DNA of 23,523 bases, taken from positions 1 through 23,523 of the IMG/VR virus record IMGVR_UViG_2703718820_000020; one strand, given 5' to 3'. Position numbers: made by a program. Positions 6,001 to 9,000 of the stretch are shown in pieces. Each line of letters starts with the position of its first letter. The stretch's first letter is position 1. This DNA comes from a virus. Its lineage: Duplodnaviria > Heunggongvirae > Uroviricota > Caudoviricetes.

Positions 6001-9000
6001 CTGGCAAAATCTATTGCAGAAATGGCGCTCGCGATTGAAGAGCCATTAACTCGTGTCCCTGCTTACGAATATCCGTTACTCTCCTGCGTACAGGCTGGCG
6101 CATTCACAATGGATGATATTTCGTACACCGCAAAGGATGCGATTAAATGGATCTCCACCACCACAAAAGCCAGTAACAAGTCGTTCTGGCTGGAAGTTAA
6201 GGGGCATTCAATGACCGCGCCACAGGGAGGTAAACCCAGCTTCCCTGAAGGTATGCTGATACTTGTTGACCCTGAACGGGAGATTGAGGATGGCGATTTT
6301 TGCGTGGCCCGAATGAACGGCGATGAATTCACCTTCAAACGATTCATTCGTGAGAGCGGTAAAGCGTACCTGGAGCCACTCAACCCACGATTCGAGATGA
6401 TTGAGTGTAACGAAAACTGCCAGTTTGTCGGAAAGGTCATCAAGTCGCAGTGGAATGATGAGACTTTTGATTGAACTCACAGGATGATATCAATAACCTT
6501 GCAAGGAGGTTATTTTATTTCCTTTTTCAGCGAAAAATCTCCGAGAACCCTCGCCCAATGCGGGCGGGGAGCAGTCGCAATCAAGTGAGCCATAAATGAA
6601 CAAAGACAAATCCTTGACACAACAAGTGGAAGAAATACTTAGCAAGCAAAAAGTTAGCGAGCAAGGAAAAATGATTCAATCATTAAAGAACATGGGCTTG
6701 ATCAACAAGCCTGTTTTTACTTTGGCTTATGGACCAGATATTACAACCTGCCAAATGCACCAATAACAAAACCCGGCCTTGGTGCCGGGTTTTGTTTGCC
6801 TCCTGCTCGCCCCACCATTTACCAGTGCGCCGTAAATTCCCCATTCTTCGGCGGTGAGGATGTCAAAGACGAAGGGAACATTAAGCCCCTGTGTGATGGT
6901 TGACTTCTTTTTCCAGCGCCTTATTAACAAAGGCGTTCAGTGATAAATCTTCTTCCATCGCCATTTCAGCGACCCGACGATGCAGTTCTGGATCAAGTCT
7001 GACGTTAAACACACCTTTAAACGGGGTATCAGGCTCCTTTCCATCCTCCACACAAGACTGCAAATACAGCTCAACCGATGTCTTAAACTCCTGTTCCAGT
7101 TCAGCTAATGTAGAAGCCTCATAAGTTACCAGGTCTCGAATAAACGCCAGTTTTCCGTACAGGATATTATTTTCAAAATCTGGTTCTACTGTACCTAAAT
7201 ATCCTTTATATTTTAGATGCTTCATAATACCCCAGCCTCTTTCAGATTCTGTTTAATCGCTTTCAGCGTTCCACCTTTAATATAACTTTCTGGATGTGGG
7301 CGATGCATTAATATGGTGTGGTTGATTTCAGCATTGAAAAACCGCACTCTTGAGCCCTGCATTTCCTTTTTGACATATCCCAGAGAGGAAAACAAAACGA
7401 CCAGCTCATCCCATTCAAACGTTTTTTTACTGTTTAAAAACTTTTCCAGTAGCTTATCTGCTTTCCCCATACCCACATAATCTCATCTTCGCTACATTGC
7501 AACTAATTATAGTTACAGGCAGTGTTTTTGTCAAAAGCCACCAAGCCCGCTGGGTTCTCTTTGACTGTTCGCTGCTTTTCTTCGTGTTATCAGGGGGCTT
7601 TTCCCTCACGCCAAATCTCACATAGAGTAACCGGCCCGCGCCGGTTTTTCTTTGACCGCACTCCGCTAACCGCCCCCTTGAAAAATAAATCACTTTAAAA
7701 ATCAGTTAAGTAATATTTTTTCACCCTCAATAACCACTAACGGTATTTACATAAAAATCACCGCAAGTTATATTTCTTTCAAGCCAGAAACATCGAGCCC
7801 TTACACAGGGCTACATAAATCAGTCGTACGGCGCGACTTAACCCGCCGCAAAATGCTCTTTAACAATCTGGAGCTTTACAGCGTCAATGACCTGTTTAGA
7901 CCCCTACACGTAAACGTGCTGTATCATCGGGTGCGATCCGGTCGATGAGAGAGTATCCCCGCGCGAGAGCGAGAACGGCGTGAGAACGGGCAACACTGGC
8001 AGGAAGTTGGCGCTGACCAATACAGGGAATGTTTTGGGGTGCAGGCGGCACCGCCAAAGCGTTTCTGAGAAAGGACGGTATTGACTGCGTGTGATGTCGG
8101 GGCTATATTTGGCGAACACCTTATAAAACGGGTGTCGGGATTCTCACCCCGCTGACAATCGAGGCGATACAGACGCGCCAGCGTCTTTTTTTGTATCAAC
8201 ATACACGCACATCTTATCAATGGTGGGCTGTATGGGGCCGACTTCGGTCGGGCTGGTTCCCTTGATTGCCAGTTGTGAGAACCCTGTACAGTCCACCGCC
8301 AGCGAGCTTCTCACCTCCAGCGGTGGTTATCAATCACCAATCAAGGAGGCTGCCATCATGGCTACTATCTCTCCCCTTTCTCGCCCATCCGTAACTATTG
8401 AAAACAGCAATGCCATCACTACGTCAATTGACATCGCAGAGTTCTTTGAGAAGCAACATCACCATGTTGTTCAGAAAATAGAATCCCTCGAATGCTCTGA
8501 GCAATTCTTAACCCGCAACTTTTCGCGGGTTAAATTTGAACACCGAGGCAATACCTATAACGCCTATCAAATCACCAAAAACGGATTCGTCTTCCTGGTG
8601 ATGGGATTCACTGGTAAAAAAGCCGCCGCTTTCAAAGAAGCCTACATTGCTGAATTCGATCGCATGGAAAAACAACTATGGGAACAGAAACAACTGGCCC
8701 TGTCTTCTCCTGCGATGAATATCAATTTTCCTTTATCGTGGTTTTCAGAGCATCACCCCTACGCCACGATAAACTATGTTGATCGCAAGGTTATCAGCCT
8801 TGATGCTTCCGTGCTCTTTGATATGCCAAGCCCAACTATGCGCATCCTCAACGAGCTACACAGCAAAGGCTATAACGTTGACGCCGCTGTCGCCGAATTT
8901 AACGCCTTCAAGCATCTGACGGAAGAAATGCGCCGTAAATTGCTGGACATTTCCCGCACATCGGAAAAGTCTTCCCGCTTTGGTTTCAACGTAAATCTTT

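What the first reader, a model, noticed from the sequence alone, without database searches (positions are those of the whole stretch)
6596..6797. Unannotated 56-aa ORF downstream of cI, ending at a bidirectional terminator
A 171-nt ORF (MNKDKSLTQQVEEILSKQKVSEQGKMIQSLKNMGLINKPVFTLAYGPDITTCQMHQ) is below the ORF-track cutoff. It is AT-rich relative to its neighbours and stops 1 nt before a 10-bp-stem terminator. An orphan SD (AAGGAGG at 6511-6517) without a matching start suggests a remnant of a rearranged gene upstream. It sits in the lysogenically expressed region, where accessory exclusion genes are usually found.
Basis: inference. Interest (0 to 1): 0.4.

Follow-up and report, generated by a model that had tools for sequence, protein, structure and literature searches.

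The report
Orphaned partner gene of a prophage protease
The 56-codon reading frame after the prophage repressor gene is a real, conserved gene, but here it is a leftover: it normally sits directly behind a ClpP-like serine protease gene in a two-gene cassette, and in this prophage a 1.3-kb deletion has removed the protease.

Summary
The ORF (6596-6766, +, 56 aa) and the 13-bp-stem bidirectional terminator (6765-6796) are real. The ORF is AT-rich (36% GC against 47% for cI). The AAGGAGG lies at 6503-6509, not 6511-6517. RefSeq annotates the identical ORF as a hypothetical protein, and it matches phrog_28875.

It belongs to an uncharacterised small-protein family (about 55-80 aa, no Pfam or NCBIfam model). 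Members follow an SDH-type ClpP-fold serine protease gene (PF01972) in 80 of 80 genome loci from many phyla and in 47 of 47 readable viral loci. In prophages the pair usually lies just downstream of the repressor gene.

The closest relative, E. coli 2015C-3121, has cI, a small membrane-protein gene, the protease, the ORF, the terminator and hicBA. The window lacks 1293 bp of that arrangement. In its place are 74 nt holding a 50-nt ISEc46-like (IS200/IS605) hairpin remnant. Only the last 13 nt of the protease gene survive.

So this is the orphaned second gene of a lysogen-expressed accessory cassette. The cassette is probably related to the DefenseFinder system FS_HP_SDH_sah. The ORF is intact and probably still co-transcribed with cI. 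Its role as a partner that binds and perhaps inhibits the protease is inferred, not shown.

Interest is moderate to low.

The parts
5761..6474 (+). cI-type repressor gene (237 aa, LexA family), the first gene of the presumed lysogenic transcript that carries the ORF
   Evidence: ORF list. RefSeq annotation of the identical sequence in L001.
6475..6508 (+). Conserved spacer downstream of cI, shared with related prophages. It ends at the left deletion junction. The AAGGAGG at 6503-6509 straddles that junction.
   Evidence: Alignment with L088, L002 and L089. BLAST colinearity L002 1-3707 = window 2802-6508. Motif position.
6509..6582 (+). 74-nt filler that replaces 1293 bp of the intact relative (the membrane-protein gene plus the SDH protease gene). 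The first 20 nt (6509-6528) are of unknown origin.
   Evidence: BLAST of L002 against the window: L002 3708-5000 has no counterpart.
6529..6578 (+). 50-nt single-hairpin remnant of an ISEc46-like (IS200/IS605) element. It consists of the left-end 5' part, a hairpin (6548-6569) and the right-end 3' tail GGGGAGCAGTCGC.
   Evidence: Matches beside tnpA/tnpB of ISEc46 in E. coli 042 and strain 1190, and solo copies on IncF plasmids. Alignment A3.
6583..6595 (+). Last 13 nt of the deleted SDH-type protease gene, including its TAA stop (6593-6595), which abuts the ORF's ATG
   Evidence: Direct comparison with L002 and L003. Colinearity resumes at 6583.
6596..6766 (+). 56-aa ORF: the small partner protein of the SDH-type ClpP-fold protease cassette, here without its protease
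6765..6796 (.). Bidirectional intrinsic terminator (13-bp stem, 6-nt loop). It ends the cI-ORF transcript and the convergent hicAB transcript, and it is the right-hand end of the cassette homology.
   Evidence: RNA folds on both strands. Homology with the L003-type cassette ends just after it, at about window 6802.

Best explanation
The ORF encodes the small partner protein (56 aa) of a two-gene operon. Its first gene is an SDH-type, ClpP-fold serine protease (PF01972, about 300 aa). Lambdoid and Rac-like prophages carry the AT-rich unit 'protease, small protein, terminator' directly downstream of their repressor gene, the position rexAB has in lambda. It would therefore be expressed in the lysogen.

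The ancestor of this prophage had cI, a small membrane-protein gene, the protease, the small protein, the terminator and hicBA. A 1293-bp deletion then removed the membrane-protein gene and all but the last 13 nt of the protease gene. The deletion is associated with an ISEc46-like IS200/IS605 element, of which a 50-nt hairpin remains.

**Shown:**
- the gene family and its strict synteny with the protease;
- co-divergence of the two proteins and purifying selection on the small one;
- the deletion junctions and the insertion-sequence remnant;
- the absence of a protease gene from the window.

**Inferred:**
1. The remaining ORF is still transcribed with cI. No terminator-like or promoter-like site was found between them.
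2. In the intact cassette the small protein is a two-helix hairpin whose conserved extended C-terminal motif (GLINKPVFTLAYGPD here; G-x3-KP-x-Y-x-LP-x2-DTIG in most phyla) docks on the protease and gates or inhibits it, in the manner of an antitoxin or pseudo-substrate.
3. The cassette serves phage exclusion or defence.
4. Without the protease, the ORF here is a recent and probably functionless leftover.
For: **Synteny with the protease.**
- 17 of 20 complete E. coli genomes that hold the ORF have the protease gene directly upstream, with TAAATG at the junction. The other 3 match the window.
- All 80 protease loci from many phyla have a 55-82 aa ORF just downstream.
- So do all 47 readable viral loci, and 38 of those ORFs hit the family profile.
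- 4 of 5 loci found through the small protein alone have the protease 10-12 nt upstream.
- No third conserved gene was found.

**Homology and selection.**
- A profile without enterobacterial members scores the ORF at 21 bits, E 1.5e-8 for a single comparison.
- The alignment is colinear.
- phrog_28875 matches at E 1e-30.
- pN/pS is 0.17-0.27.
- Pairwise distances of protease and small protein correlate: r = 0.80, Mantel p = 0.001, n = 79.

**Position.**
- 30 of 49 viral loci have a repressor-like ORF directly upstream, across many immunity types.
- The same holds in Klebsiella aerogenes prophages and in L120, which reads cI, protease, small ORF, N.

**Deletion.** L002 1-3707 equals window 2802-6508 and L002 5001-8404 equals window 6583-9982. 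tblastn finds no protease in the window. The insertion-sequence remnant is shown.

**Composition.** GC is 36% for the ORF and 38% for the protease gene, against 47% for cI.

**Structure.** The AlphaFold2 model has helices at 7-17 and 20-32, then an extended conserved tail of lower confidence.

**Precedent.** The nearest solved relative of the protease is Pyrococcus horikoshii PH1510. It cleaves its operon partner stomatin; this last point is from my own knowledge.

**Defence link.** DefenseFinder lists a two-gene system named FS_HP_SDH_sah. The name was seen in PMC13532340.
Against: - There are no expression or translation data for this ORF.
- The Shine-Dalgarno (ribosome-binding) sequence is weak (GAG, 6 nt upstream). 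In the intact cassette translation may depend on coupling to the protease stop, which is lost here.
- No PADLOC model matches either protein.
- The primary paper on FS_HP_SDH_sah is not held. Whether its 'HP' component is this small protein is therefore unknown.
- In Shewanella and in an environmental genome the pair sits among housekeeping genes with no mobile element nearby. A non-defence cellular role is therefore possible.
- The binding and inhibitor roles rest on sequence pattern and analogy only. The structure model is of modest confidence (pLDDT 68) and no complex could be modelled.
- The protease was lost or disrupted in 5 E. coli genomes (3 independent events) while the small ORF is intact in 20 of 20. 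This asymmetry is not significant: the small ORF is only 16% of the target, so three events would all miss it by chance with p about 0.6.
Confidence: 0.8

Rival explanations
1. The orphan ORF is kept because it is useful on its own. For example it could act as an inhibitor ('orphan antitoxin' or anti-addiction factor) that neutralises SDH-type proteases brought in by superinfecting phages or other elements, or as an independent small exclusion factor expressed with cI.
For: - The ORF is fully intact. It differs from the copy in L002 by one residue at a variable position and one synonymous change.
- The same orphan arrangement occurs in three complete genomes of different origin: Norway (human), JNEC-KY176 (human) and a deer isolate.
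- Solo or protease-less small-protein genes recur elsewhere. P0155 is an in-frame fusion of the first 39 protease residues to an intact small protein, while orthologous loci keep the pair. P0129 stands alone with no protease remnant.
- The protease is independently frameshifted in one further E. coli genome and interrupted by an insertion sequence in another, and the small ORF is intact in both.
Against: - The flanks are 96-98% identical to the intact relative. The deletion is therefore recent, and an intact ORF is expected without any selection.
- The three genomes may share one prophage lineage.
- The asymmetry of losses is not statistically significant.
- No function for the small protein alone is known.
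Confidence: 0.12
2. The small protein is not a regulator but the dedicated substrate or pro-peptide of the protease. It would be cleaved at the conserved Y-x-L-P/A motif to release an active C-terminal or N-terminal peptide. Without the protease, the ORF here would yield an unprocessed, inert precursor.
For: - The conserved motif lies in a predicted extended segment, as cleavage sites do.
- The nearest solved relative, PH1510, processes its operon partner (plus my own knowledge).
- The two proteins co-diverge strictly.
Against: - Neither protein has a recognisable signal peptide domain, and no conserved exporter or modification gene accompanies the pair.
- The residues after the motif are poorly conserved and of variable length, which is unlike a bioactive peptide.
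Confidence: 0.15
3. The ORF is a chance open frame, and the functional element is only the terminator or an RNA.
For: - The ORF is small, and the Shine-Dalgarno (ribosome-binding) sequence is weak.
- The terminator is needed by both convergent transcripts.
- Two weak Rfam matches overlap the region (isrJ and AgrB, E about 0.8).
Against: - Purifying selection at the protein level.
- A colinear family alignment across phyla.
- The small-protein family profile finds 132 database proteins at E <= 0.001.
- Strict synteny with the protease.
- The Rfam matches are far below their gathering scores.
Confidence: 0.02

Closest known systems
DefenseFinder system FS_HP_SDH_sah (Fillol-Salom et al. 2022, Cell 185:3248; two genes: a hypothetical protein plus an SDH_sah/PF01972 protease, found on phage-inducible chromosomal islands)
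   Same: - It is a two-gene unit made of a PF01972-type protease and a protein of unknown function.
- It is carried on mobile elements of Enterobacteria.
- The intact relatives of this locus have the PF01972 protease (44.2 bits against a cut-off of 31.3).
   Different: - The window has no protease gene.
- I could not establish whether the 'HP' component is homologous to this 56-aa protein, or what its size and gene order are. The paper and the models are not held.
- Here the carrier is a lambdoid prophage, in the slot downstream of cI, not a chromosomal island.
Lambda rexA-rexB (and other accessory genes of the cI operon, such as sieB-type exclusion genes)
   Same: - The position is the same: directly downstream of the repressor gene on the same strand, ending at a terminator.
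- It is therefore expected to be expressed in the lysogen from the repressor's promoters.
- The slot is variable and holds defence-type cargo in relatives, including a restriction-modification system in L089.
   Different: There is no sequence similarity to RexA/RexB or to any Pfam family. The components are different: a protease and a small soluble protein.
Pyrococcus horikoshii PH1510 (NfeD-type ClpP-fold protease) with its operon partner stomatin PH1511
   Same: It is the nearest solved relative of the cassette's protease (E 5e-4). It is a ClpP-fold serine protease encoded in an operon with a specific partner protein, which it cleaves (my own knowledge).
   Different: - The similarity is very distant.
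- PH1510 is membrane-bound and its partner is a large stomatin, not a 56-aa protein.
- It has no link to phages.
Type II toxin-antitoxin modules with orphan antitoxins
   Same: - It is a compact two-gene operon with translationally coupled genes.
- The smaller partner evolves faster (mean distance 0.77 against 0.41).
- It is inherited as a unit, and copies are found in which only the small partner survives.
   Different: - No toxicity of the protease has been shown.
- The small protein has no recognised DNA-binding antitoxin domain. The ArgR-like hit is below threshold (16.6 bits against a cut-off of 27).
- A ClpP-fold protease is not a known toxin class.
phrog_28875 (PHROGs family of unknown function)
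   Same: A direct match: E 1e-30 over residues 1-53 of a 56-position profile.
   Different: The family carries no functional annotation and does not record the link to the protease.

Membership tests
Small-protein partner family of SDH-type ClpP-fold proteases (unnamed; includes phrog_28875) | Sequence: two N-terminal helices followed by G-(L/I/V)-x2-(K/x)-P-x-(Y/F)-x-L-(P/A) and a short conserved tail | tested here: met
   - A profile of non-enterobacterial members scores the ORF at 21 bits, E 1.5e-8 for a single comparison.
- The alignments A4 and A5 are colinear.
- phrog_28875 matches at E 1e-30.
- The model has helices at 7-17 and 20-32.
Small-protein partner family of SDH-type ClpP-fold proteases (unnamed; includes phrog_28875) | Position: starts within a few tens of nt downstream of a PF01972 protease gene on the same strand | tested here: not met
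   In the window only the last 13 nt of the protease gene remain (6583-6595), and tblastn finds no protease. The feature is met in the closest relatives L002, L003 and L004.
DefenseFinder FS_HP_SDH_sah | Presence of an SDH_sah (PF01972) protease gene | tested here: not met
   It is absent from the window. It is present in relatives at 44.2 bits against a cut-off of 31.3.
DefenseFinder FS_HP_SDH_sah | Presence of the system's 'HP' component, by homology to its profile | not testable with these tools
   The DefenseFinder profiles are not available. The primary paper is not held. PADLOC has no model that matches either protein.
DefenseFinder FS_HP_SDH_sah | Protection against phage infection | not testable with these tools
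   This requires phage challenge experiments.
Type II antitoxin | An adjacent gene for a cognate toxin that the small protein neutralises | tested here: not met
   There is no adjacent partner gene in the window. Toxicity of the protease in relatives has not been tested.
Type II antitoxin | A recognisable DNA-binding domain (HTH, RHH, AbrB or similar) | tested here: inconclusive
   The only hits are below threshold: the ArgR N-terminal domain at 16.6 bits against a cut-off of 27 in Pfam, and 17.2 bits against 194 in NCBIfam. Foldseek finds no match.
Intrinsic (Rho-independent) terminator, bidirectional | A G+C-rich stem-loop followed by a U-run on each transcribed strand | tested here: met
   A 13-bp perfect stem with a 6-nt loop. 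Folding energy is -23.2 and -24.9 kcal/mol, z -3.8 and -4.2. UUUUGUUU follows on the + strand and UUUUGUUAUU on the - strand.
IS200/IS605 insertion sequence (ISEc46) | tnpA and/or tnpB genes flanked by distinct left-end and right-end hairpins | tested here: not met
   Only a 50-nt chimeric hairpin combining left-end and right-end sequence is present (6529-6578). It holds no transposase gene. It is a remnant or miniature derivative, not an insertion sequence.

The most novel reading that the evidence does not exclude
The SDH-type protease and its small protein form a protease-based module resembling a toxin-antitoxin or abortive-infection system. The small protein would be a pseudo-substrate inhibitor that holds a ClpP-fold effector protease in check until phage infection. 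Orphan copies such as this one would persist because they protect the lysogen against SDH-type proteases brought in by other mobile elements (an anti-addiction role).
Probability: 0.15. Interest if true: 0.6.

Novelty: new member of a known kind. Interest (0 to 1): 0.33.

Why it matters
For this window the result is mostly tidying-up. An apparently mysterious small gene after cI is explained as the surviving half of a decayed accessory cassette, and the deletion that made it is mapped to the base.

The wider by-product is more useful. An unnamed family of 55-80 aa proteins, with no Pfam or NCBIfam model, is tied to PF01972 proteases across bacterial phyla. Prophages place the pair again and again in the lysogen-expressed slot behind the repressor. 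This gives a concrete two-component definition and a testable partner for a protease family with no known mechanism. That family is already listed, without a mechanism that I could find, as part of an anti-phage system.

Tried and rejected
- **PADLOC:** no match for the ORF, the protease or the membrane protein.
- **Pfam and NCBIfam on the ORF and on four distant family members:** only sub-threshold hits (ArgR, DnaJ-X, GvpG and others). I rejected these as noise.
- **tblastn of the ORF against the phage collection:** no match.
- **Exhaustive HMMER search with the single sequence:** only 3 hits. The family became visible only through synteny-anchored collection.
- **PDB profile search with the small-protein family:** designer pentatricopeptide-repeat proteins scored E 1e-11, but no single stretch passed on its own. 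I rejected this as an additive repeat artefact of a helix-G-x-x-P-x-x-Y pattern.
- **Foldseek of the model against the PDB:** nothing.
- **Rfam:** only two matches at E about 0.8.
- **Internal terminator-like hairpin at 6692-6714:** it lies in the conserved coding motif and is broken in L003, so I rejected it.
- **Natural fusions of protease and small protein among 120 protease homologues:** none found.
- **Literature:** the primary paper for FS_HP_SDH_sah is not held. Searches for the protease's names found nothing relevant.
- **A third conserved gene in the module:** none found.
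Full report
**Observation.** The ORF is exactly as described: 6596..6766 on the + strand, ATG start, 56 aa, with the quoted translation.
- It is AT-rich: 36.3% GC, against 47.3% for the cI gene just upstream and 47.9% for the window.
- It ends in a perfect 13-bp stem (6765-6777 / 6784-6796, 6-nt loop) that overlaps the TAA stop by two bases.
- The stem folds at -23.2 kcal/mol on the + strand and -24.9 kcal/mol on the - strand, with U-runs following on both, so it is a plausible bidirectional terminator.
- Two details need correcting. AAGGAGG is at 6503-6509, not 6511-6517. RefSeq already annotates the identical ORF as hypothetical protein WP_164834428.1 in E. coli FHI_NMBU_10.

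**Surroundings.** The local order is as follows:

| Feature | Coordinates | Strand |
|---|---|---|
| cro | within ORF 5462-5701 | - |
| cI (LexA-family repressor, 237 aa) | 5761-6474 | + |
| the ORF | 6596-6766 | + |
| terminator | 6765-6796 | both |
| hicB | 6881-7225 | - |
| hicA | 7222-7476 | - |

No promoter-like or terminator-like site lies on the + strand between cI and the ORF. By analogy with the lambda cI-rexA-rexB operon, the ORF is therefore expected to be on the repressor transcript. This is inference.

**What the ORF normally accompanies.** DNA searches of complete E. coli genomes find the ORF in 20 genomes.
- In 17 of them it lies immediately behind a 300-aa gene annotated 'SDH family Clp fold serine proteinase'. 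The protease stop abuts the ORF start (TAAATG), and both genes are downstream of a repressor gene.
- The protease matches Pfam PF01972 (44.2 bits, cut-off 31.3).
- The remaining three genomes have the arrangement of this window.

**The association across bacteria.** The protease family is large: 4451 proteins at E < 1e-5.
- I fetched 80 loci from many phyla (Proteobacteria, Bacteroidota, Acidobacteriota, Gemmatimonadota, Elusimicrobia and others). Every one has a 55-82 aa ORF on the same strand just after the protease stop.
- In 49 viral contigs, all 47 with readable downstream sequence have a 53-77 aa ORF there, and 38 of these hit the family profile.
- The reverse test also holds. Of 5 loci found through the small protein alone, 4 have the protease 10-12 nt upstream.
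- No other gene is conserved around the pair.

**The small proteins are one family.**
- They align colinearly: an N-terminal helix, a variable linker, a second helix, then G-(L/I/V)-x2-K-P-x-(Y/F)-x-L-(P/A). Most phyla continue with x2-D-T-I-G-(K/R). The enterobacterial form is GLINKPVFTLAYGPD.
- A profile built without any enterobacterial member scores the window's ORF at 21 bits (E 1.5e-8 for a single, position-defined comparison).
- A profile search of the large protein database returns 132 proteins. All are 51-115 aa, all are 'hypothetical', and none has a Pfam domain.
- Pfam and NCBIfam have no model for the family. PHROGs has phrog_28875, of unknown function (E 1e-30).

**Evidence that the family is protein-coding and tied to the protease.**
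- pN/pS among the E. coli-group copies is 0.17-0.27, and 34 of 49 differences fall at third codon positions in the most distant pair.
- Pairwise distances of protease and small protein correlate (r = 0.80, Mantel p = 0.001, n = 79). The small protein diverges about twice as fast.

**Where the pair sits.**
- In prophages the pair is typically the first cargo after the repressor gene. In 30 of 49 viral loci a cI/LexA-like ORF lies directly upstream on the same strand, and these repressors are very diverse.
- The same holds in Klebsiella aerogenes Rac-like prophages. Locus L120 reads cII, cro, cI, protease, small ORF, N.
- In close relatives of this window the same slot holds other cargo: a small membrane-anchored protein alone (L088), that protein plus the protease pair (L002), or a restriction-modification system (L089).
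- The pair also occurs among housekeeping genes with no mobile element nearby, in Shewanella and in an environmental genome. A defence role is therefore likely but not proven.

**What happened in this window.** BLAST of the closest intact relative (E. coli 2015C-3121, L002) against the window gives two colinear blocks: L002 1-3707 equals window 2802-6508 (96.1%), and L002 5001-8404 equals window 6583-9982 (97.5%).
- The window therefore lacks L002 3708-5000. That is 1293 bp holding the membrane-protein gene and all but the last 13 nt of the protease gene. It has 74 nt instead (6509-6582).
- tblastn finds no protease anywhere in the window.
- None of the three genomes with this arrangement appears among the 17 genomes that hold a protease gene detectable by blastn.
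- The filler holds a 50-nt element (6529-6578). It matches the left end of the IS200/IS605 element ISEc46 beside tnpA in E. coli 042 and strain 1190, and it ends with that element's right-end tail GGGGAGCAGTC(A/G)C. It is therefore a single chimeric hairpin combining left-end and right-end sequence.
- The same solo form occurs on IncF plasmids. The 121-nt cI-ORF interval, queried whole, matched 781 places in 691 E. coli genomes, and all but three of the records matched only this short element.
- The natural reading, which is inference, is that an ISEc46-like element inserted in the cassette and a later deletion removed its interior and the neighbouring genes.
- The AAGGAGG straddles the left junction. 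Its homologues in relatives (CGGGAGA, AGGGATG) lie about 50-60 nt before the next start codon. It is therefore not the ribosome-binding site of a lost gene.

**State of the orphan.** The ORF differs from the L002 copy by one synonymous change and one replacement (Arg33 to Met) at a position that varies in the family. It is intact, but the deletion is recent, so intactness says little about selection.

Protease loss with retention of the small gene recurs:
- a frameshift in UCPROB-002;
- an ISEc52 insertion in CP52E;
- the deletion seen here;
- in an unrelated environmental bacterium, an in-frame fusion of the first 39 protease residues to an intact small protein, while orthologous loci keep the pair;
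- one solo small-protein gene with no protease remnant.

No protease-only locus was seen. With three independent events in E. coli and a small gene that makes up only 16% of the target, this asymmetry is not significant (p about 0.6). I treat it as a lead only.

**How it probably works.** The AlphaFold2 model, built with a 79-sequence alignment, has mean pLDDT 67.7. It shows a two-helix hairpin (7-17, 20-32) followed by an extended, less confident segment that carries the most conserved residues. This is the pattern of a peptide that becomes ordered on a partner.
- The protease keeps invariant Ser102, His236 and His238 and several invariant aspartates (for example Asp144 and Asp170) across 14 diverse members, so it is probably active.
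- Its nearest solved relative is the P. horikoshii NfeD-type protease PH1510 (E 5e-4). To my knowledge that enzyme cleaves its own operon partner.
- I therefore favour a model in which the small protein binds the protease through its C-terminal motif and gates it, as an inhibitor or pseudo-substrate. The main alternative is that it is a processed substrate.
- None of this is shown here, and no complex could be modelled.

**Relation to known systems.** DefenseFinder lists a two-gene anti-phage system named FS_HP_SDH_sah, a hypothetical protein plus an SDH_sah protease. I saw the name in PMC13532340. The attribution to Fillol-Salom et al. 2022 is from my own knowledge and from the citation seen.
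- The primary paper is not held, and PADLOC has no matching model. I cannot tell whether its 'HP' component is this family.
- The intact cassette is at least the same kind of system. The window's copy fails the defining test of having the protease.

**Verdict.** The ORF is a real gene and a member of an unnamed but widespread family. In this window it is the orphaned half of a decayed prophage accessory cassette. The finding itself is ordinary. The family-level link between the small protein and the protease is a modestly useful by-product.

Noticed in passing
window 6529-6578 (hairpin 6548-6569); also L005 about 2403-2452, L006 2501-2541 and 4225-4256: A 50-nt single-hairpin element that joins the left-end start and the right-end tail of ISEc46 (IS200/IS605). 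Searching the 121-nt cI-ORF interval gave 781 places in 691 complete E. coli genomes, almost all matching only this element; 290 are on plasmids and they are mostly unannotated. It looks like a widespread solo or miniature derivative of the insertion sequence.
   Followed up: partly
L002 about 3995-4025, compared with L003 about 4015-4040: Upstream of its protease gene, L002 carries 'cctgaagagacgtttgggtga'. This matches the 3' end of the lambda-type cI gene, which directly precedes the cassette in L003. The cassette seems to have moved between immunity types together with a scrap of the donor's repressor gene.
   Followed up: no
window 6471-6599 (+): A 42-codon TTG-initiated frame spans the whole cI-ORF gap. 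Its TTG overlaps the cI stop (TTGA) and its TGA overlaps the ORF's ATG (ATGA). It could in principle relay translational coupling from cI to the ORF. It is probably chance, since part of it is insertion-sequence remnant.
   Followed up: no
window 7506-7534 (-), upstream of hicA (7222-7476): A promoter-like site with a perfect 12/12 match to the sigma-70 consensus (TTGACA, 17 nt, TATAAT) ahead of the hicAB toxin-antitoxin pair.
   Followed up: no
L149 3001-3348 (protein P0155), compared with L152 and L153: In an environmental bacterium, a 115-aa protein is an in-frame fusion of the first 39 residues of the SDH protease to a complete small partner protein. Orthologous loci with the same neighbours keep the intact pair. 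This is an independent case of protease loss with the small gene kept.
   Followed up: partly
E. coli plasmid pSM107_MCR (L004): The intact cI, protease, small-ORF cassette also sits in a lambda-like region (O/P replication genes, cII, cIII, kil, gam, bet, exo) of a 111-kb plasmid named as an mcr plasmid. This may be a prophage inserted in the plasmid or a phage-plasmid.
   Followed up: no
window 18645-18883, compared with window about 8716-8954 (through L002 7137-7375): A second copy, about 88% identical, of a 239-nt segment of the Rha/antirepressor-type gene region lies elsewhere in the window.
   Followed up: no
L002 3770-3931; L088 2663-2824: A 53-aa 'transmembrane anchored protein' (phrog_14503, category 'moron, auxiliary metabolic gene and host takeover') is the usual first gene after this type of cI. 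It was removed from the window by the same deletion.
   Followed up: partly
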